The notes under the pieces were generated by a model, which did not search any database, had not been told where the DNA came from, and saw nothing but the letters and a program-made list of their open reading frames with translations. Position numbers and translations under genes: made by a program. From NCBI GenBank assembly GCA_965242865.1, contig CBDETK010000013.1, positions 5,184,001 through 5,248,000 on the forward strand: a stretch of DNA of 64,000 bases. The letters are read 5' to 3'. Every line of letters begins with the position of its first letter. Positions within the stretch are counted from its first letter, which is position 1. The DNA is from Candidatus Latescibacterota bacterium. GTDB taxonomy: Bacteria > Latescibacterota > UBA2968 > UBA8231. This document shows, in pieces, positions 1 to 37,498 of the stretch.

Positions 1-307
1 CCCTTGCCTGCTGGTCGCCAGCCAAGGCGGGTTGAGCCGCAACATGGAGCGGCTGATGAAAATGACCGACCGCGAGTTCAAAGGCTCGCTGCGCACGCTA
101 GAGATCAATCGCCAGCACCCCATCATCCGCAACATGGCCGCCGTGCTCAAGCGCGACCGCGACTCCGACCAGTTGGAGCAATGGGCGCACTTTCTCGTTG
201 ATTTCGTCTTGCTGGGCGAGGGCACGGTCGCGGACCCGCAGCGGCTGGGCCAGAGCTTGCAATCGATCATGGGCGCGGTCACCGCACACGCGGCCGAGGA
301 GCGGTAG
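1..307 (+). CDS. htpG: Chaperone HtpG (Hsp90), C-terminal part, 5' end outside window
   Basis: MERLMK...RTLEINRQHPII...LLGEG..DP matches the HtpG C-terminal dimerisation domain. Confidence 0.85.
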   Translation, partial: PCLLVASQGGLSRNMERLMKMTDREFKGSLRTLEINRQHPIIRNMAAVLKRDRDSDQLEQWAHFLVDFVLLGEGTVADPQRLGQSLQSIMGAVTAHAAEER

Positions 308-308
308 C

Positions 309-1616
309 ATGTCCGATCCTGTGCGCCAACAAGCCCGCGCGGCCCGCGCGGCGTCGCGCACTCTCGCCGCGACCTCCGAGGAAGAGCGCAACCAAGCCCT
401 CGAAGCGATTGCCGTGGCCCTTGAAGCAAACCGCGCCCGCATCTTGGCGGCCAATGCCGAAGACCTGAAAGCTGGCGAGCGCGATGGGCTGGCGTCGCCC
501 TTGCTCAAGCGGCTCGATCTGAGCGGGCGCAAATTCGCCAGCACGGTGGACATGGTGCGCGACGTCTGCGCTCAACCCGATCCTCTCGGCCAGACCCAGC
601 GCGCCACCGAGCTCGACGACCGGCTCCACCTCTACCGAGTGACCGTGCCCATCGGCGTGATCGGGGTGATCTTTGAATCCCGGCCCGACGCCTTGGTGCA
701 AATAGCCGCCCTGTGCCTCAAGGCTGGCAACGCCGCCTTGCTCAAGGGAGGGCGCGAAGCCACGGCGACCAACCAAGCCCTCGCCGAGGTCATGCGCCAA
801 GCCACCGCGGACCTCCTTTCAGACGGGTGGATGACGCTCTTGCCCGGCCGCGAAGAAGTCCGCGCCCTGCTCGGGGAGGAGGACCTTATCGACCTCATCA
901 TCCCGCGCGGCAGCAACGAGTTTGTGCAATACATCATGCACAACACCAAAATTCCGGTCATGGGCCACGCCGACGGGATCTGCCACGTGTACATCGATGC
1001 CAGCGCAGACCTAGACAAGGCCGTGTCGATCGCGGTCGATGCCAAGACCCAGTACGTGGCCGTGTGCAACGCGGCCGAGACCTTGCTCGTCCACAGCCGC
1101 ATTGCCGCGGCGTTTTTGCCGCACGCCGTGCCGGCACTGCTGCAAAAAAACGTGGAGCTGCGCGGCGACGAGCGCACCCTCGCCCACGCCAACGGGCAAG
1201 TCAAGCCGGCCACCGAAGCCGACTGGTCCACCGAGTACTTGGACTTGGTGCTGGCGATAAAAATCGTCGATAGCGCGGCCGAGGCCATTGACCACATCAA
1301 CGCCTACGGCAGCCATCACACGGACGCGATCGTGGCCGAAGACCGAGTCGCGGCCCGCGCCTTTTTGCGCGAGGTGGATTCCGCCTCGGTGATTCACAAT
1401 GCCTCCACGCGCTTTGCCGATGGCTTCAAATACGGGCTAGGGGCCGAGGTCGGCATCAGCACCAACCGCCTACACAGCCGCGGCCCGGTCGGGTTGGAGG
1501 GCCTCGTCATCTACAAGTACATTCTCCAAGGGGACGGCCACATCGTCGATCGGTACGATGGCCCGCAGCAGCGCCCCTTCACCCATCGCCCTCTAGACCA
1601 GCACTGGCAGGACTGA
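309..1616 (+). CDS. proA: Gamma-glutamyl phosphate reductase
   Basis: [63 protein letters not shown]; ATG at 309 right after the htpG stop. Confidence 0.97.
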
Positions 1617-32423: not shown

Positions 32424-32438
32424 GGCAAGGCGCGGCGA

Positions 32439-32852
32439 TTAGGACTTGAGCAACGTTATGCTCATCATTGGAAAATGTTGATCGAAGGCAAACGCTTGAT
32501 CGATTCTATGCTTGCGACAAACAGCAAAACTAGTGCAATCGGTGAACGATAGTTTTACTGAATTGTATTGACAAAAAATCCGCTTGGCTTCTCCAAACAG
32601 AGTACTATCAATTTTTTCGACCATTAAACTACCTGCACTTTCATAGCGTTCAATATGGTTAAGAAATTCCACGGCTAGCGCGTGATTCGCTTTACGCCGA
32701 ATAAACGTTGTGGTCTCACCAATCACGTAATCTGTCGTTAAAAATTGAACGCTCTGCCTTCCTAGGTCGTCGTAAATTTTCAAAGCGTCTTCATGGTGTT
32801 GATCGTTCCGATCTAAATAGGCGACCCAAGCCCCTGTATCGACAAAAATCAT
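32439..32852 (-). CDS. PIN-domain (VapC-like) ribonuclease toxin
   Basis: IFVDTGAW, D.HH, TTDYVIGET, SFTDCTSF, AFAFDQHF; acidic PIN residues intact. Confidence 0.92.
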   Translation of the reverse strand: MIFVDTGAWVAYLDRNDQHHEDALKIYDDLGRQSVQFLTTDYVIGETTTFIRRKANHALAVEFLNHIERYESAGSLMVEKIDSTLFGEAKRIFCQYNSVKLSFTDCTSFAVCRKHRIDQAFAFDQHFPMMSITLLKS

Positions 32853-35800
32853 GGTTTTGAATCCAGCCCATAAATAATTTGGTCGTGGTTGAGAGAGCCA
32901 TCGGTTCGGTCCGATTCATAGGCTCCAGCCAACTCGCGAAAAACTTCATACCCTTCTTTTCTTTTGGTGAAAATGTTGGCCGCTTCCAACTTAGGTAACT
33001 CCTTCACAATCGCCACCGTCTCCACACTCACCGCGATCACCTTCCCGAGCAGCTTGACGATGTACTGCGGATCATCCGACCGATTCGGGTCGTTGACAAT
33101 GCCGCTGCGCTCATCCGTCTTGACGGCATATTGATCGACGACCCATTCCAACGCCGACCGATTGCCCAGCCGATAGTCAAACGCCGCGGGCGGAATGCCA
33201 ACCAGCGTCAAGAAGTCGTTGTACTGAATCTGTGTCTTGTCTTTGGACAGCCGCATCTTTGCGACGCGCCAGTCGAGCGGCAAGTCTGGATCTTCAACGA
33301 ACTCAAGCTGATATTCGGGCACCTCTTCATAGCTAACGTGAATCTCGGCCAGCCGCTTTCCCGCTTTCGCATAAGCCCAAAAATTTGGCTCGTAGGGAAT
33401 GCGCGGCAATGCGCGCTTGAGATTGGCTTGATACCGAGCGCGGTATTGCGGGTGGTGCAACAAGCCATACACATAATGGAAAATGTCCCATTTGCCGATG
33501 GCGTCGTCTCGGTAGTTCAAGCGGAATCGCGCCAACGTTGTATCTGTTATGTTCTCGCGGCGGTTGATGCCGTCTGCGTCGTAAATGTAAAAGGGAAAGC
33601 ATTGGGAACTGTCGAGGGAGGTCAACGCCAAGCAGGGGATCATATCGGTGCAAAAACACCAATAAGCAGTACGGCCTCCAGCCCCCGGAACGATGATCAC
33701 CTGATTTTCCGCTTCAGTCTCTGGCGTGGGAAAAATAGACGGAAATACTCCCACTCTATCGTTCATCATTCTGTCAAAGTAAAAATTCGATTTTGTAAAG
33801 GGTCGATAGAGCGAACATCGCATTTTTTTGGGGGCGAATTCTGCGATTTTTCCGCTCTTCAGCTTATTTTTTAATGTTGAACTCCACTTGATTTTTGCGT
33901 CATCATACTCGACAAAGTCATCAACCTTCGTCTTTTTATCGGTCCGTTCCCATCTATCGACCTCTGCGTTATAAACACCAATCATCCGCTGGATCTTCGC
34001 AGCGAGCGCAGCTCGGTTAAAGTCGTACACCCAAGCGTCTCGCCCGGTATTGACGCCGCTGCTATACGTCTGAAAAATCACCGCCTCCTTGCTCTTGCCC
34101 GCCTTCGCTTCTTTGCTGCCCAGCGGAAGAAACGCAGCAAATTCCCGGTTTTGCAGCCCCTCGGTAAGCCAAGTATGTCGCTCGTCCGGTACTACCTCCT
34201 TCCATTCCACATTCCCGCAATGCCCCTTCTCATCGAGATAGCGATACTTCTCCTCCTTGCGCCAGTCCTTCTCGACACCGAAATAGAAAATTTTCGCCGC
34301 GGTCGCCGCACGATCGCTCCTTTTTACAAACAGGTTGATACTCACTCCAACCTGAATTCCAAAGACATTGTGAGTGGTCCCTGAGAGCTTTGGATTCTTG
34401 CGAACATTTCCACCCAAATCGAGCACGTATATTGCATCGAAATCGTCTGCGAGGTGTTTTCGCATCCCGTCAAACGCTATCCCATCGAGAAAACCATTAT
34501 TCGTTACAAATGCGACGATACCTTCCGCGCCGATCCGATCCGCAGCCCACCGAATCGCCTTTGTGTACGGGTCTTGTAGCTGCCTTTTAAGCGTCGCCTT
34601 AGAATCCTTGGCATACGTAGCCTTCACCCGCGCATCCATCGTCTCGTACTGCCGATTCTTGTTGTTGTCATTCTCGTTGACTTGACCGACATTGTAGGGC
34701 GGATTGCCGATAATCACAAACATCGGCGTCTCCTTCTGCCGTTCAACACGCGCCGTATTCTCCGCCGTAAATAGGGCCATTTGCACTTCTTCTGCCAACT
34801 CGAACGTATCCACCAAGCATATTCCCGCAAATGGCTGATAATATCCCATTGCCTCGTAAAATTCGTGCTCGATGTTCATGCTCGCGATGTAATACGGCAG
34901 CAACATCACCTCATTGCAGTGCAGATCGGAAGCATACTTACCTTCAAGCGAGGTCTTGCGAATCGCGCGCATCGTGCGGGCGATAAAATTGCCGGTGCCG
35001 ACAAACGGATCGATGATGTGAACGCCGGCGTCGGAAAGCGAGCGGCCAAATTCGGCCTTTAGAATGTGCTCGACACTTCGCACCATAAAATCGACGATCG
35101 ACTGCGGCGTGTACACAATCCCGTGCGTATCGGCGATCTCGACTGAAAAACCCTGAAAAAACTGCTCGTACACCGCGTTGAGGAAATGCTGCTTTTGGGC
35201 AAAGTCGCCGATAGTGCTCCCAGTGCGCTCAATCGCAGCGTAGAAGCGGTCGAGGCTTTGCAGGAAACCGGCGCGGTTAAAGGACCGCGACGTGAGGGCG
35301 TCAATAACCTTTTCGATCTCGGCGGCGATGACATTGCGGCGCGTAAAGTCTGGGTTGCTGAACACCGTGCGGAAAATCCGCTCGGTCAAAAGGTGCTGGA
35401 TGAGCATCTCCTCGACCGCTGCGTCCGCGAGGTTTGGATTGATCGACGAGCGACATTTGGCGAGAAAATCGGCAAAGGCGGTGGCAAACCCACGATTGTT
35501 TTGCCGTTCCCGCTGAATTTTCGCCGCCAACCCACGCCCGATCGCCGGCACCTTGCCCTTGAACTGCGCGACCGCCGCTTCCCATTCGGCGATCGCCTGC
35601 GGGCGGTGCGAAAAAAAGGCTGTAAGCGTCTCGATCAGCCGTTGTGGATCGGTCACATCCTCGTCTAAAACAGGCTCGCCGCGTTGCCAAAGAATCGCCC
35701 GAGCCGGCGTCTGAAACAGGATGTTGTCGCTGGGATACCCGGCCGCAAACTTGCGCTGCACCTCGGCTTGCAAGTCATCGTCCATATCCTTGGCTTCCCA

Positions 35801-36049
35801 AACCCCGTGCAGCAAGTTAAAATCGTCGATCAACGCGCCATCGACGACGATTCGCCTATTGCGACCACAAGCGATGGCATACTCGGGAACGAGCGTCCAG
35901 TTGACCTGTCGCCCACACCATTCGAGCAGTGCTTGAAACGCCGAGCGCACCGAGGTTTCATTCGTCACCCCAAGCCGCTCAAATTGCTCAAGCGATTCGT
36001 AGTACGCCTTAACGGGCTTATGCGTTGATTTGAGCTTGAGCGTCGGCAT
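32849..36049 (-). CDS. Helicase-less Type ISP-like restriction-modification enzyme with a C-terminal antitoxin-like extension
   Basis: N-terminal VDG..WEAKD nuclease; GIVYTP, DPFVGTGNF, GNPPY MTase; LlaBIII-like C-terminal domain ending VSVETVAIVKELP; extra 45-aa tail. Confidence 0.88.
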   Translation of the reverse strand: MPTLKLKSTHKPVKAYYESLEQFERLGVTNETSVRSAFQALLEWCGRQVNWTLVPEYAIACGRNRRIVVDGALIDDFNLLHGVWEAKDMDDDLQAEVQRKFAAGYPSDNILFQTPARAILWQRGEPVLDEDVTDPQRLIETLTAFFSHRPQAIAEWEAAVAQFKGKVPAIGRGLAAKIQRERQNNRGFATAFADFLAKCRSSINPNLADAAVEEMLIQHLLTERIFRTVFSNPDFTRRNVIAAEIEKVIDALTSRSFNRAGFLQSLDRFYAAIERTGSTIGDFAQKQHFLNAVYEQFFQGFSVEIADTHGIVYTPQSIVDFMVRSVEHILKAEFGRSLSDAGVHIIDPFVGTGNFIARTMRAIRKTSLEGKYASDLHCNEVMLLPYYIASMNIEHEFYEAMGYYQPFAGICLVDTFELAEEVQMALFTAENTARVERQKETPMFVIIGNPPYNVGQVNENDNNKNRQYETMDARVKATYAKDSKATLKRQLQDPYTKAIRWAADRIGAEGIVAFVTNNGFLDGIAFDGMRKHLADDFDAIYVLDLGGNVRKNPKLSGTTHNVFGIQVGVSINLFVKRSDRAATAAKIFYFGVEKDWRKEEKYRYLDEKGHCGNVEWKEVVPDERHTWLTEGLQNREFAAFLPLGSKEAKAGKSKEAVIFQTYSSGVNTGRDAWVYDFNRAALAAKIQRMIGVYNAEVDRWERTDKKTKVDDFVEYDDAKIKWSSTLKNKLKSGKIAEFAPKKMRCSLYRPFTKSNFYFDRMMNDRVGVFPSIFPTPETEAENQVIIVPGAGGRTAYWCFCTDMIPCLALTSLDSSQCFPFYIYDADGINRRENITDTTLARFRLNYRDDAIGKWDIFHYVYGLLHHPQYRARYQANLKRALPRIPYEPNFWAYAKAGKRLAEIHVSYEEVPEYQLEFVEDPDLPLDWRVAKMRLSKDKTQIQYNDFLTLVGIPPAAFDYRLGNRSALEWVVDQYAVKTDERSGIVNDPNRSDDPQYIVKLLGKVIAVSVETVAIVKELPKLEAANIFTKRKEGYEVFRELAGAYESDRTDGSLNHDQIIYGLDSKP

Positions 36050-36075
36050 AGCAAACCTCCATTTCAGAATCTGTC

Positions 36076-37419
36076 CTAAAACCTGCTGCGATTCAGTACG
36101 GCCCCCAGGCGCGGAAGAATCCGCGTCGGGACGAGGCGGCGATATTCATCCCAATACGCGCCATACTTTTGCTGGCAGCGCTCTTCGTCGCGCCGGGCGC
36201 GATGCAGCAGCAAAACGGTCAGAACAATCACGTAAAAATAGGGCAGGACATGCGAAAACAGGGCCGGCACCGTCCAAAAGAAGGCCGCCAAAATCTCCGG
36301 CGCGTAGTGAAAGTGCCGCGCCACGCCCCACCAACCGGACGCCAACAAAATGGTCTCTTTCTCCACGCCGTCTTCCGCGCAGTACTTGGCGACAATGAGC
36401 CGCGGCTTTTTCCCCCAGATCGTGCATTTGCCGCCCGTTGCCCGCACTACTTGACGTTGCCTATCGGCAAAGTAGTTGATCATCACCGCCCCTACTCCCA
36501 ACACCGCGATCGCGGTCGACCACGCCATACCGAGCTGATGCGGGTGATGCACCAAGTACAAAATGGGCGACGTATAAATCGCCGGCACCCACACCAAACA
36601 CCCCCAGCAAGTCATAAATCCGGCCCGGTCGTGCATGATGTCAATCGAACAGAGATAACCCGTTTCCCATACAAAAAATTTGACCAAGTAAGTCAGCATG
36701 ACGATTAGGGCCACCACCATTGAATCGCTCAAACCGCCGAGCTCGGCCTGCTTGGCCGCAAACGACAACACAATGATCGGCCACCCCATCATGCCAAAGC
36801 GACAATTGGTAAACATCTTGACGTCCCAGCCCAAGATGCGCGGGTACAGTTCCGTTCCCCAGTAATAATCGAAAATAAAATTGCCGCTCCGACCGTCCGA
36901 CCCCGAGGGAAAAAACCGGCCCTTGTAGTACAGCAACAAACAGAACGCCAAACCAAAGACATTCAACGCGCCGATAATGCCCGCAAAGTTGTCATAGACG
37001 ATCGTCGGCTCAAACCAATGGAACGCAAAGCCACCCAACAGGAACAAGCCCAGCGAAATCAAAAAACACGCCAAGCCATTGGCGCTGTACACCGGCACAT
37101 AGCCCTTCGGCGTAGTCGGCCCGCAAAAGCGCGGCCCCGGCACCACGCGCATCAACAACAATTGCACCGCAGCAAAAGTGCCGATGATTTTCCAGCCGGC
37201 CGCCGTGCCCCAGACGACCGGCTCCCAGACAGACACCAGTTTTGCAAAAAAACCAACGGCGATGACCTGCTCTACGAAAGATGCCACCGAGCCTTGGTGG
37301 TTCACATTGATCTCCCACATCAACAAGGCCGTTGAGGGGCAGCAAATCAGCAAGAACAGCGGCGCCAATGTATGGTGAAAAAGATGTCGTATTTTACTCT
37401 TCTTAGCTTGAGTATCCAT
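36076..37419 (-). CDS. Sterol Delta7-reductase (DHCR7/DWF5, ERG4/ERG24 family)
   Basis: Multi-TM; DYYWGTELYPR, FTNCRFGMMGW, DIMHDRAGF..WG.LVWVP, LLASGWWGVARHFHY, RARRDEERC..KYG.YW.EY..VP. Confidence 0.92.
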   Translation of the reverse strand: MDTQAKKSKIRHLFHHTLAPLFLLICCPSTALLMWEINVNHQGSVASFVEQVIAVGFFAKLVSVWEPVVWGTAAGWKIIGTFAAVQLLLMRVVPGPRFCGPTTPKGYVPVYSANGLACFLISLGLFLLGGFAFHWFEPTIVYDNFAGIIGALNVFGLAFCLLLYYKGRFFPSGSDGRSGNFIFDYYWGTELYPRILGWDVKMFTNCRFGMMGWPIIVLSFAAKQAELGGLSDSMVVALIVMLTYLVKFFVWETGYLCSIDIMHDRAGFMTCWGCLVWVPAIYTSPILYLVHHPHQLGMAWSTAIAVLGVGAVMINYFADRQRQVVRATGGKCTIWGKKPRLIVAKYCAEDGVEKETILLASGWWGVARHFHYAPEILAAFFWTVPALFSHVLPYFYVIVLTVLLLHRARRDEERCQQKYGAYWDEYRRLVPTRILPRLGAVLNRSRF

Positions 37420-37498
37420 TCGTCTGTCCCGTTTTCAGTGCCCTGCTCGTTGCTCACAAGCAAAATTAACGTAGATTTTACCCAAAAAGGAAACCTCT

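What the first reader, a model, noticed from the sequence alone, without database searches (positions are those of the whole stretch)
32439..36049. RM enzyme with a fused antitoxin-like tail coupled to an orphan PIN toxin: candidate RM-guarded abortive-infection system
Seen: the Type ISP-like nuclease-MTase-TRD protein reaches the helix where, to my knowledge, such proteins usually end (VSVETVAIVKELPKL). It then continues for 45 aa (32986-32849: EAANIFTKRKEGYEVFRELAGAYESDRTDGSLNHDQIIYGLDSKP). Its stop overlaps the start (ATGA, 32849-32852) of an intact-looking VapC-type PIN gene, and no separate antitoxin gene is present. Recalled pattern: G..(E/D)S..TD.S.(N/R)HD..(L/I)Y resembles the toxin-binding C-terminus of small antitoxins found upstream of this PIN subfamily. 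Known precedent: PrrC is an RNase held silent by the EcoprrI RM complex. Inference: the RM enzyme itself is the antitoxin, so phage inhibition, degradation or loss of RM would free the RNase, giving backup defence or addiction.
Basis: partly seen in the sequence, partly recalled or inferred. Interest (0 to 1): 0.88.

Follow-up and report, generated by a model that had tools for sequence, protein, structure and literature searches.

The report
Restriction enzyme carrying a PIN-toxin antidote tail
A DNA restriction-modification enzyme in an uncultured sponge-associated bacterium ends in the short peptide that normally belongs to the antidote of a PIN RNase toxin, and the toxin gene follows it directly, so the enzyme itself most likely holds the toxin in check.

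Summary
ORF 32849-36049(-) encodes a 1066-aa single-chain RM enzyme, and PIN ORF 32439-32852(-) overlaps it by ATGA. The enzyme is DrdV-like Type IIL/IIG with no ATPase, not Type ISP.

Its last ~40 residues match the C-termini of stand-alone antitoxins of this PIN subfamily. A profile of 33 such antitoxins finds only this tail in the whole 6-Mb genome (E 7e-5). None of the 150 best RM homologue representatives carries it.

The fusion is not an artefact. It recurs in a syntenic related genome, two metagenome protein clusters, another relative and contigs from three studies. It is under purifying selection.

The same tail also ends other large proteins upstream of this PIN: an unknown ~600-aa protein 'X' and a DUF2806 protein. 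RM-X(tail)-PIN and RM-DUF2806(tail)-PIN cassettes occur in Poribacteria, Latescibacterota and Caldilineaceae. One relative shows the tail joined to RM where X would lie.

Best reading: the RM polypeptide carries the neutralising peptide, which makes the RM gene addictive. The phage-triggered 'guard' function is untested. This is a new variant of a known kind.

The parts
32849..36049 (-). Single-chain RM enzyme ORF, 1066 aa plus stop; DrdV-like Type IIL/IIG
   Evidence: PADLOC REase_MTase_IIG PDLC03621 matches profile positions 8-1013 of 1024 at E 4e-184. PDB 7lo5 (DrdV) matches at E 1e-202.
35570..36049 (-). N-terminal PD-ExK nuclease domain (about residues 1-160; D70, E85, K87)
   Evidence: Residues 13-188 align to DrdV 6-184 at E 1e-23. 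The window's K87 aligns with DrdV K81, whose mutation abolishes catalysis (passages of bioRxiv 10.1101/2021.01.06.425610).
35210..35557 (-). Helical coupler domain (residues 165-280)
   Evidence: PF22240 ISP_coupler, E 9e-17.
34412..35194 (-). N6-adenine methyltransferase domain (residues 286-546), with an FxGxG-type motif and NPPY readable in the translation
   Evidence: PF02384 at E 1.5e-12 and PF07669; translation.
32987..34078 (-). Target recognition domain, up to the helix where homologues end (residues 658-1021)
   Evidence: PF18135 covers its full profile at E 1e-100. In the AF2 model of residues 651-1066, model residues 11-370 have pLDDT 82-98 in blocks of ten.
32852..32986 (-). 45-aa antitoxin-like tail (residues 1022-1066)
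   Evidence: The stand-alone-antitoxin profile scores it at E 7.1e-5 and it is the only significant hit in the genome. It is absent from 150 of 150 RM representatives. AF2 gives pLDDT below 50 for residues 1025-1066, so it is not packed on the enzyme. Omega is 0.20 against L001.
32849..32852 (-). ATGA overlap of the RM stop and the PIN start (translational coupling)
   Evidence: The ORF that ends at the PIN start overlaps it by the same 4 bases in most of the closer PIN loci L001-L027.
32439..32852 (-). VapC-type PIN toxin gene, 137 aa
   Evidence: PF01850 at E 1.3e-13. The acidic residues D5, E46, D105 and D124 are invariant in 25 homologues. The nearest solved relative is M. tuberculosis VapC20, E 4.6e-15 with the family profile.
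32987..33004 (-). Candidate internal start: AAGGAG, a 9-nt spacer, then TTG (the Leu1021 codon). It could yield a free 46-aa tail peptide.
   Evidence: Read. In L001 the purine-rich box is shifted, giving a 12-nt spacer. Not tested.
36076..37419 (-). ERG4/ERG24-family gene, a passenger in the same low-GC island immediately upstream of RM
   Evidence: PF01222 at E 3e-72. GC profile. Present in L001 and absent in G007.
32424..37498 (.). Inserted island of about 5 kb between era and purD
   Evidence: GC is 0.43-0.60 against 0.62-0.70 in the flanks. Era and purD lie about 21 nt apart in 4 of 5 same-genus genomes examined that lack the RM-PIN block at this site.

Best explanation
The 1066-aa protein is an intact-looking DrdV-like Type IIL restriction-modification enzyme. 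Its domains are a PD-ExK nuclease, a coupler, an N6A methyltransferase and a TRD. A flexible ~40-residue peptide is appended to its C-terminus. In ordinary loci of this PIN subfamily, that peptide is the C-terminal part of the small antitoxin encoded just upstream of the toxin; established VapBC biology assigns that part to toxin binding. The PIN gene is translationally coupled to the RM gene by ATGA, so PIN is made only when a full-length, tail-bearing RM chain has been made.

Shown: the homology of the tail, its absence from other RM enzymes, the absence of any other antitoxin gene, conservation of the arrangement, and purifying selection on it.

Inferred: the tail binds and silences PIN on the RM enzyme. 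If so, any event that removes the tail frees a VapC20-like RNase. Such events include loss of the locus, a nonsense or frameshift mutation anywhere in the 3.2-kb RM gene, and proteolysis of the exposed tail. The minimal consequence is addiction: the RM gene and its reading frame are protected. The tail probably reached RM by deletion of an intervening tail-bearing gene, as seen in a related lineage. Whether phage attack on RM also releases PIN, giving guard-type abortive infection, is open.
For: - Tail homology: a profile from 33 stand-alone antitoxin C-termini hits only the RM tail among 111,488 genome ORFs (E 7.1e-5; next hit E 3).
- A tail profile searched against longer proteins returned 14 hits. 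Two are 1066-aa RM proteins and eleven are RHH, AbrB or PF01954 small antitoxins; one has no Pfam domain.
- 74 of 80 PIN loci carry the motif next to the PIN start, against 4 hits among 8029 same-strand ORFs elsewhere. This count is partly circular for the small antitoxins, because they built the profile.
- 0 of 150 best RM representatives carry the tail.
- Among 12 close RM loci in relatives, the tail is fused in 4. PIN follows directly in 3 of those, one of them only as a remnant. Six loci have neither tail nor PIN, including a 75%-identical paralogue in the same genome.
- L001 is syntenic with the window. RM is 91.5% and PIN 87% identical at protein level. Omega is 0.23 for the RM body, 0.20 for the tail and 0.54 for PIN.
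- Contigs from runs of three studies span PIN-tail-RM without frame breaks.
- The PIN acidic tetrad is invariant. The RM catalytic motifs are present.
- AF2 folds the TRD confidently and gives the tail pLDDT below 50, so it is exposed.
- Complex prediction on PIN plus tail gave a verdict of weak support: score 0.50 against a best control of 0.00. That mark was reached by 58 of 80 solved complexes and 2 of 110 mismatched pairs. At 0.60 or under it was reached by only 7 of the 80 and by both of the mismatches that passed. The runs agree in at least 93% of contacts and the partner pLDDT is at least 67.
- Deletion origin: G034 has RM-X(tail)-PIN-RelB-like. G035 has RM fused to that type of tail, followed directly by the same RelB-like gene. 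A 12-nt direct repeat in G034 lies at the RM 3' end and at the start of the X tail.
- Precedent for a short neutralising element on a swappable carrier: the Phd-C element neutralises its toxin when fused to SUMO (PMC10440598, passages read).
Against: - No experiment exists. Binding, toxicity and neutralisation are all inferred.
- The complex prediction is only weak support.
- PIN evolves faster than RM (omega 0.54; 21 nonsynonymous against 10 synonymous differences).
- The tail estimate rests on 7 substitutions.
- A large stable enzyme is an odd antitoxin if lability is needed for release.
- An internal SD-like box plus TTG could give a free peptide.
- X-PIN modules also stand without any RM gene in the ~2.6 kb upstream: 3 of the 12 full-length X loci lie behind an AAA_15 ATPase and 5 behind housekeeping genes. 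RM is therefore not an obligate partner of this toxin.
Confidence: 0.7

Rival explanations
1. Dedicated RM-guard abortive infection. PIN sits latent on the RM enzyme and is released or activated when a phage anti-restriction protein or a DNA mimic binds RM or triggers its degradation. This would give a second line of defence like PrrC/EcoprrI or PARIS.
For: The physical premise is supported. DrdV-like RM genes of one clade are repeatedly followed by tail-PIN modules in three phyla: 6 of 80 PIN loci and 6 of 12 close RM loci. The other carriers look defence-like: DUF2806 with a weak Abi_alpha match, and X beside AAA_15 ATPases. RM guardians are an accepted class (PMC12707154 passages; PMC1484252 abstract).
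Against: Nothing in the sequence shows a trigger. The tail is predicted to hang free of the RM body, so no allosteric link is evident. The fusion can be explained by deletion plus survivor bias. X-PIN also occurs with no RM gene in the ~2.6 kb upstream, 8 of 12 loci.
Confidence: 0.2
2. The true antitoxin is a free 46-aa peptide made from an internal start (AAGGAG, 9 nt, TTG at 32987-33004) nested in the RM 3' end. The fusion to RM is then incidental read-through.
For: The SD-like box and TTG can be read. A promoter-like site lies at 33071-33099(-). In G029 a 52-codon tail-only ORF precedes PIN.
Against: The SD box is shifted to a 12-nt spacer in L001. The Leu codon is part of the conserved LPxL end of all RM homologues, so its conservation says nothing. 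The promoter match is 9 of 12 and lies in a conserved coding stretch. The isolated Phd-C element failed to neutralise in the one tested precedent, which the authors attributed to possible instability (PMC10440598 passage). The tail has stayed in frame with RM in four sequence clusters and in contigs of three studies.
Confidence: 0.1
3. The tail recruits PIN, which is dimeric in known VapC proteins, as a working partner of RM rather than silencing it. PIN would act as a bridge that brings two RM chains together, or as an extra nuclease.
For: DrdV cleaves only after DNA-bound monomers assemble into dimers, trimers and tetramers (bioRxiv 10.1101/2021.01.06.425610 passages). A PIN dimer holding two tails could favour such assembly; this is my inference.
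Against: The tail is homologous to the C-terminal peptide of bona fide RHH and AbrB antitoxins. The same tail sits on unrelated carriers. All other RM homologues work without it.
Confidence: 0.06
4. The arrangement is a decaying remnant. PIN or the tail no longer functions, and the layout is a neutral scar of a deletion.
For: Decay is seen in relatives. In G007 the RM has lost residues 578-812 and PIN has lost its core. In G035 the tail is frameshifted and PIN is gone. PIN omega is 0.54.
Against: In the window, L001 and G008 both genes are intact. The PIN acidic tetrad is conserved. Omega is below 1 for all three parts. Variant contigs from other studies differ at 40 to 70 of about 2,500-2,700 positions without breaking the frame; the only indel listed is an in-frame 3-nt deletion.
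Confidence: 0.07

Closest known systems
DrdV (Type IIL single-chain RM enzyme of Deinococcus wulumuqiensis, PDB 7LO5/7LVV)
   Same: It is a full-length homologue: E 1e-202, with window residues 13-1019 aligning to DrdV 6-1025. The domain order is the same, the PD-ExK lysine is conserved and neither protein has an ATPase.
   Different: DrdV ends 4 residues after the aligned part. The window protein continues for a further ~45 residues that resemble an antitoxin C-terminus, and a PIN gene follows it.
VapBC type II toxin-antitoxin pairs (nearest solved toxin: M. tuberculosis VapC20)
   Same: The toxin is a PIN with the four acidic residues. The upstream ORF overlaps the toxin start. The tail matches the C-terminal peptide of RHH, AbrB and PF01954 antitoxins of this subfamily.
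   Different: The antitoxin part is not a small labile DNA-binding protein. It is the end of a 1066-aa enzyme, with no RHH or AbrB domain, so classical autoregulation is unlikely. No solved chain carries this tail motif (best E 0.39).
PrrC held latent by the Type Ic enzyme EcoprrI
   Same: An RNase is genetically and, in this reading, physically tied to an RM enzyme (PMC1484252 abstract; PMC12707154 passages).
   Different: PrrC is an ABC-ATPase-fused anticodon nuclease embedded in a Type I locus, and no antitoxin-type peptide is described for it in the abstracts and passages I read. Here the RNase is a VapC-type PIN tied to a Type IIL enzyme through a covalently appended antitoxin peptide. 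Activation by a phage factor is unknown.
PARIS (AriA-AriB)
   Same: A toxin nuclease is sequestered by a large partner and released on sensing an anti-restriction protein (abstracts of 10.1101/2024.01.02.573835, 10.1101/2024.01.02.573894 and PMC11455837, seen in the listing).
   Different: In PARIS the sequestering partner is an ABC ATPase, not the RM enzyme itself, and the toxin is a TOPRIM nuclease. There is no sequence relation to this system.
Multidomain PanA antitoxins and the fused CapRel system (NetFlax study)
   Same: A short neutralising element (Phd-C, PAD1) does the neutralising, while a larger, swappable domain acts as carrier or sensor. Phd-C neutralises its toxin when fused to SUMO (PMC10440598 passages).
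   Different: The carriers here are an RM enzyme, the unknown ~600-aa protein X and a DUF2806 protein. The toxin is a PIN.
PIN genes in Type I RM operons (Matelska et al. 2017)
   Same: PIN toxins are sometimes found without an antitoxin beside RM subunits (PMC5499597, section 17 read in full).
   Different: That survey reports no PIN in a Type II RM context and states that no direct TA-RM interaction had been shown. This locus is a Type II(L) context with a covalent link. Its Supplementary Figure S7 could not be seen.

Membership tests
Type IIL/IIG single-chain RM enzymes (DrdV/MmeI-like) | N-terminal PD-(D/E)xK nuclease domain with the catalytic lysine | tested here: met
   Residues 13-188 align to DrdV at E 1e-23, with D70, E85 and K87 in register with DrdV K81 (DrdV passages).
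Type IIL/IIG single-chain RM enzymes (DrdV/MmeI-like) | N6-adenine methyltransferase with SAM-binding and NPPY motifs, followed by a fused TRD | tested here: met
   PF02384 and the full PF18135 profile; both motifs are readable in the translation; PADLOC REase_MTase_IIG matches nearly the full profile.
Type IIL/IIG single-chain RM enzymes (DrdV/MmeI-like) | Sequence-specific cleavage and hemi-methylation activity | not testable with these tools
   Needs enzyme assays or methylome data.
Type ISP RM enzymes (LlaGI/LlaBIII) | RecA-like ATPase/translocase between the nuclease and the coupler | tested here: not met
   Only residues 189-1022 align to LlaGI and LlaBIII. The protein is 1066 aa with no ATPase domain, and the 1646-position PADLOC model matches only from position 759.
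VapC/PIN type II toxins | PIN fold with four conserved acidic residues | tested here: met
   PF01850 at E 1.3e-13; D5, E46, D105 and D124 are invariant in 25 homologues; VapC20 at E 4.6e-15. The NCBIfam VapC model matches only at 21 bits against a cut-off of 80.
VapC/PIN type II toxins | RNase activity that arrests growth and is neutralised by the upstream product | not testable with these tools
   The only indirect result is complex prediction weak support: 0.50 against a best control of 0.00.
VapB-type type II antitoxins | C-terminal toxin-binding peptide homologous to cognate antitoxins, encoded just upstream of and overlapping the toxin gene | tested here: met
   the ATGA overlap.
VapB-type type II antitoxins | Small protein with an N-terminal DNA-binding domain (RHH, AbrB and the like) that autoregulates the operon | tested here: not met
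   The carrier is a 1066-aa RM enzyme with no such domain.
RM-guardian abortive infection systems (PrrC-like, PARIS-like) | Toxin activated when a phage factor inhibits the RM enzyme | not testable with these tools
   No trigger can be read from the sequence.
RM-guardian abortive infection systems (PrrC-like, PARIS-like) | ABC-ATPase sensor or regulator module | tested here: not met
   Neither RM nor PIN has one.

The most novel reading that the evidence does not exclude
The ~40-residue peptide is a portable 'leash' that moves by deletion and recombination between defence proteins: a DrdV-like RM enzyme, the ~600-aa protein X with a possibly HEPN-like end, and a DUF2806/Abi_alpha-like protein. 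Whichever protein carries it becomes the keeper of a VapC20-like RNase. In the RM-borne form the RNase is released when phage counter-defence binds, unfolds or degrades the RM enzyme. One polypeptide would then be restriction enzyme, methylase, antitoxin and infection sensor at once.
Probability: 0.2. Interest if true: 0.85.

Novelty: new variant of a known kind. Interest (0 to 1): 0.72.

Why it matters
Guard systems that fire when restriction is disabled (PrrC, PARIS) are known. In those I read about, the guard and the RM enzyme are separate proteins, and how they touch is hard to study.

Here the link is covalent and can be read from the sequence. That makes three questions directly testable with a four-construct experiment: does the enzyme silence the RNase, what frees it, and does this help against anti-restriction phages?

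The locus also shows how a toxin can enforce the integrity of a 3.2-kb defence gene, because every frameshift or nonsense mutation would remove the antidote. It further shows that a short neutralising peptide is exchanged among large defence proteins in sponge-symbiont genomes. A 2017 survey of PIN genes reported no PIN in a Type II RM context and no direct TA-RM interaction (PMC5499597, section 17). My literature searches found no description of an RM enzyme bearing an antitoxin peptide.

Tried and rejected
- Tail search: the 66-aa tail alone, searched among proteins of 36-116 aa, found no candidate sharing three words. This is a sensitivity limit. The profile route later worked.
- Databases for the tail: Pfam and NCBIfam gave nothing meaningful (DUF2525 at E 0.029). 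No solved structure carries the motif (best E 0.39).
- Expression: no RNA holder was listed among the sequencing runs, so transcription, an internal start and co-transcription could not be examined. All four runs laid were contigs.
- Protein X: Pfam, PADLOC and NCBIfam gave no family. The ESM Atlas gave only 'hypothetical protein' clusters. The AF2 model was poor for residues 1-399. The wide fold search on its helical C-terminal domain gave a best Z of 7.5 (adenylosuccinate lyase helices), with several HEPN entries at Z 5-6.4. That is below the noise level the tool states for helical bundles, so a HEPN assignment is not established.
- Island ends: I looked for flanking direct repeats and found none convincing.
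- Promoter and terminator scan: only consensus-level matches.
- Single or multiple origin of the RM-tail fusion: the careful tree puts the window clade (100/100) and the G035 fused gene (in a separate 100/99 clade with two tail-less genes) apart. The backbone forks are open, so one old fusion with several losses is not excluded. The partial G007 row moved between the quick and the careful tree.
- Assembly artefact, rejected: the junction stands in L001, G008, two protein clusters and contigs of three studies.
- 'Type ISP', rejected: the enzyme has no ATPase.
- Unseen material: supplementary files of papers are closed. Supplementary Figure S7 of PMC5499597 (PIN genes in RM operons) and the NetFlax datasets may hold related cases that I could not see.

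Full report
**1. What is in the sequence**

On the minus strand, ORF 32849..36049 encodes 1066 aa and ORF 32439..32852 encodes 137 aa. The stop of the first and the start of the second share ATGA at 32849-32852. The PIN gene ends 15 nt from the convergent era gene, so there is no room for another small gene. No small ORF with antitoxin features lies on either strand.

The block lies in a low-GC island together with an ERG4/ERG24-family gene at 36076-37419. GC is 0.43-0.60 in the island and 0.62-0.70 outside it. The island sits between era and purD. In 4 of 5 same-genus genomes examined that lack the RM-PIN block at this site, era and purD are about 21 nt apart. The island is therefore an insertion.

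**2. The large protein**

- Pfam finds ISP_coupler (residues 165-280), N6_Mtase (286-478) and the complete Type_ISP_C profile (658-1000; E 1e-100).
- PADLOC calls it REase_MTase_IIG and matches nearly the whole of a 1024-position model.
- The best solved relative is DrdV, a 1029-aa Type IIL enzyme: E 1e-202, with window residues 13-1019 aligning to DrdV 6-1025.
[quoted passage not shown] 'Type ISP-like' should therefore read 'DrdV-like Type IIL/IIG'.
- The PD-ExK residues D70, E85 and K87 are in register with DrdV K81. The DrdV preprint states that mutating K81 abolishes catalysis (10.1101/2021.01.06.425610, passages read).
- The SAM-binding motif and NPPY can be read in the translation. The enzyme looks intact.

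**3. The tail is extra**

A search of 1.84 billion representatives gave 14,139 homologues. In the 150 best, the aligned part ends at query residue ~1016-1028, mostly within a few residues of the homologue's own end. None of the 150 matches a tail profile or carries the motif in its last 40 residues.

A 75%-identical paralogue in the same genome and five further close homologues in relatives end 8-20 residues after the shared LPxL.

An AF2 model of residues 651-1066 folds the TRD with pLDDT 82-98 in blocks of ten. Residues 1025-1066 stay below 50, with some helical propensity, so the tail is not packed on the enzyme. Only 4 of the 20 alignment rows carry the tail, which limits this result.

**4. 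The tail is an antitoxin C-terminus**

The PIN has 492 homologues in the word-indexed search. With their alignment I fetched 80 loci from species-representative genomes; 532 of 592 candidate stretches encoded a relative, and the best 80 were kept.

The ORF that ends at the PIN start carries the same C-terminal motif almost everywhere.

A profile built only from 33 small stand-alone antitoxins of distant loci was run against all 111,488 six-frame ORFs of the 6-Mb genome. The only significant hit is the RM tail (E 7.1e-5, 25.2 bits). The next hit has E 3.

With that profile, 74 of 80 loci have a hit of at least 10 bits next to the PIN:

| Carrier ORF | Loci |
|---|---|
| 135 aa or shorter | 49 |
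| 136-400 aa | 8 |
| longer than 400 aa | 13 |
| cut by the locus edge | 4 |
| no hit | 6 |

Only 4 such hits lie elsewhere among 8029 same-strand ORFs. The count is circular for the 33 sequences that built the profile, but not for the long carriers.

A tail profile searched against longer proteins gave 14 hits among the 8000 candidates scored. Two are 1066-aa RM proteins, eleven are small RHH, AbrB or PF01954 proteins, and one has no Pfam domain.

**5. The PIN**

The PIN matches PF01850 at E 1.3e-13. The acidic residues D5, E46, D105 and D124 are invariant in 25 homologues. The nearest solved chain is M. tuberculosis VapC20, named in the entry as a 23S rRNA-specific endonuclease (E 4.6e-15 with the family profile).

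**6. The fusion is real and maintained**

- L001, from another Latescibacterota species, has the same ERG4-RM-PIN-era order.
- Against L001, RM is 91.5% and PIN 87% identical at protein level, with no indel over the 3611 nt. Omega is 0.23 for the RM body and 0.20 for the tail (4 synonymous, 3 nonsynonymous differences). It is 0.54 for PIN (10 synonymous, 21 nonsynonymous).
- Two metagenome protein clusters are 1066-aa RM proteins whose tails are 94% and 96% identical to the window's.
- G008 has the RM end, the tail and an intact PIN at a contig end.
- Contigs of runs from three studies span era-PIN-tail-RM: X1 with 0 differences, X3 with 40 and X4 with 70. X7 contributes a short piece across the junction. 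The only indel listed is an in-frame 3-nt deletion inside PIN.

**7. Decay in relatives fits a linked fate**

In G007, at the same era-purD site, RM has lost residues 578-812 but keeps the tail in frame, and PIN has lost its core. In G035 the tail is joined to RM but is frameshifted near its end. A RelB-like gene stands where PIN should be.

**8. The tail sits on other large proteins, often behind the same kind of RM**

In Poribacteria the carrier is a conserved protein of about 575-650 aa, here called X. X has no Pfam, PADLOC or NCBIfam family.

In two Caldilineaceae loci the carrier is a 339-aa DUF2806 protein (E 1e-32) with a weak Abi_alpha match.

A tblastn search with the window RM against the 80 PIN loci finds a DrdV-like RM gene upstream in 6 of them:

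| Locus | Arrangement | RM identity to window |
|---|---|---|
| L001 | RM fused to tail, then PIN | 91% |
| L002, L006, L012, L016 | RM-X(tail)-PIN | 66-68% |
| L023 | RM-DUF2806(tail)-PIN | 61% |

G034, a Latescibacterota of another family, has RM-X(tail)-PIN-RelB-like. G029 has a more scattered layout. Its RM is followed by a DUF2321/DpnII-MboI-type nuclease gene, a HicB-like ORF, a 52-codon tail-only ORF and then PIN.

Of the 12 full-length X loci, 4 follow an RM gene. Three (L003, L010, L011) share one layout, and in L003, the one scanned, its large ORF is an AAA_15/AAA_21 ATPase. Five follow ORFs of one layout that were housekeeping oxidoreductases in the two loci scanned, L009 and L017. 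X-PIN is therefore an autonomous module that often, but not always, lies behind this RM.

**9. How the tail reached RM**

G035 and G034 share the downstream RelB-like gene and a gene of about 255 aa. G034 has X and PIN between RM and those genes. G035 has RM running straight into an X-type tail.

In G034 a 12-nt direct repeat lies at the 3' end of RM and at the start of the X tail. The G035 junction falls in that motif. Deletion between the repeats explains the fusion. An insertion of X into an older fusion would leave the same repeat, so the direction is inferred.

L005 shows a further internal deletion, with the N-terminal part of X joined to the tail.

In the RM tree the window clade (100/100) and the G035 fused gene lie apart. 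The G035 gene sits in a 100/99 clade with two tail-less genes. The backbone is unresolved. Two independent fusions are the simpler reading, but one fusion with several losses is not excluded.

**10. Mechanism**

*Shown.* An apparently active RM enzyme ends in the subfamily's antitoxin peptide. There is no other antitoxin gene. PIN is translationally coupled to RM. The arrangement is conserved.

*Inferred from established VapBC biology.* In known pairs the antitoxin C-terminus wraps the PIN and blocks its active site, so the tail should hold PIN inactive on RM.

*Indirect support.* complex prediction gave weak support for PIN plus tail, with a score of 0.50 against a best control of 0.00. That mark was reached by 58 of 80 solved complexes and 2 of 110 mismatched pairs. 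At 0.60 or under it was reached by only 7 of the 80 and by both of the mismatches that passed. The runs agree in at least 93% of contacts and the partner pLDDT is at least 67.

*Minimal consequence: addiction.* Losing the locus, or any nonsense or frameshift mutation in the 3.2-kb RM gene, removes the antidote.

*Survivor bias.* If PIN is toxic, only deletions that keep the tail translated can survive. That alone could explain why the tail ends up on whatever ORF lies upstream. This tempers the 'guard by design' reading.

*Still open.* The guard reading is not excluded. It is encouraged by the repeated RM-tail-PIN linkage across three phyla and by the defence-like nature of the other carriers.

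**11. Comparison with what is known**

PrrC/EcoprrI and PARIS are the accepted RM guardians (PMC12707154 passages; PMC1484252 abstract; abstracts in the listing). Both use ABC-ATPase modules, and the passages I read describe no antitoxin peptide on the RM enzyme.

The NetFlax study shows that short neutralising elements ride on exchangeable carrier domains. It also shows that Phd-C neutralises its toxin when fused to SUMO (PMC10440598 passages). That is the closest mechanistic precedent.

The 2017 PIN survey found PIN genes in Type I RM operons and none in a Type II context. It states that no direct TA-RM interaction had been shown (PMC5499597, section 17 read in full). The 'embedded defences' preprint describes a VapC-like PIN paired with an ABC ATPase unrelated to VapB (10.1101/2024.01.29.577857 passages).

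Three full-text searches gave no report of an RM enzyme carrying an antitoxin peptide.

**12. Verdict**

The trigger part is untested and has a simpler rival.

This is a new variant of known kinds: a type II TA pair and RM-linked abortive infection. It comes with a wider finding, a portable neutralising peptide shared by RM, X and DUF2806 carriers in sponge-symbiont genomes. Interest is 0.72.

Noticed in passing
window 36076-37419 (-): An ERG4/ERG24 sterol-reductase-family gene (PF01222, E 3e-72) rides in the same low-GC island just upstream of RM. It is also present in L001 but absent from the decayed G007 locus. This is an unusual passenger next to a defence module.
   Followed up: partly
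L002:2681-4501, L097:324-2102 and 10 further loci (alignment A3): Protein X is a conserved family of about 575-650 aa with no known domain. It carries the same antitoxin tail upstream of PIN. Its C-terminal helical domain models well (pLDDT about 80-90) and contains an R-x5-H motif. HEPN entries appear among weak fold matches (Z 5-6.4), which is not conclusive.
   Followed up: partly
L023:3485-4504, L024:3485-4504: In Caldilineaceae the tail carrier is a 339-aa DUF2806 protein (E 1e-32, with a weak Abi_alpha match). In L023 it lies directly behind a DrdV-like RM gene.
   Followed up: partly
L097:270-324 and about L097:1970-2030: A 12-nt direct repeat lies at the RM 3' end and at the start of the X tail in G034. 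The RM-tail junction of G035 (L084) falls in it, as a deletion or insertion between the repeats would leave.
   Followed up: yes
L085 (G029): 214-1399 (-): A defence cluster lies downstream of a tail-less RM. It holds a DUF2321 plus REase_DpnII-MboI protein, a HicB-like ORF, a 52-codon tail-only ORF in another frame, and then PIN. This is either a frameshifted HicB-tail antitoxin or a minimal free antitoxin.
   Followed up: partly
G019:C1:186256-193184 (L100): At the same era 3' end, another same-genus genome has a different insertion of about 6.3 kb, followed by a second copy of the last 59 nt of era. The era-purD junction may be an integration hot spot.
   Followed up: no
G000:C13:1504315-1507563 (L096) and three further places in the own genome: The genome holds a 75%-identical DrdV-like paralogue without a tail or PIN. 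It also holds three more distant (about 30% identity) single-chain RM-like genes.
   Followed up: partly
L003:581-2609 (same layout in L010, L011): An AAA_15/AAA_21 ATPase of about 500 aa and an ORF of about 170 aa lie directly upstream of X-PIN. This resembles ATPase-plus-effector defence pairs.
   Followed up: no
L004:1660-4453: An X-like ORF with a tail hit (22 bits) is separated from PIN by a 326-aa ORF. This may be an insertion between the antidote and the toxin.
   Followed up: no
window 33071-33099 (-): A promoter-like site (9 of 12 matches) lies inside the RM gene about 85 nt upstream of the tail. It sits in a strongly conserved coding stretch, so its meaning is unclear.
   Followed up: no
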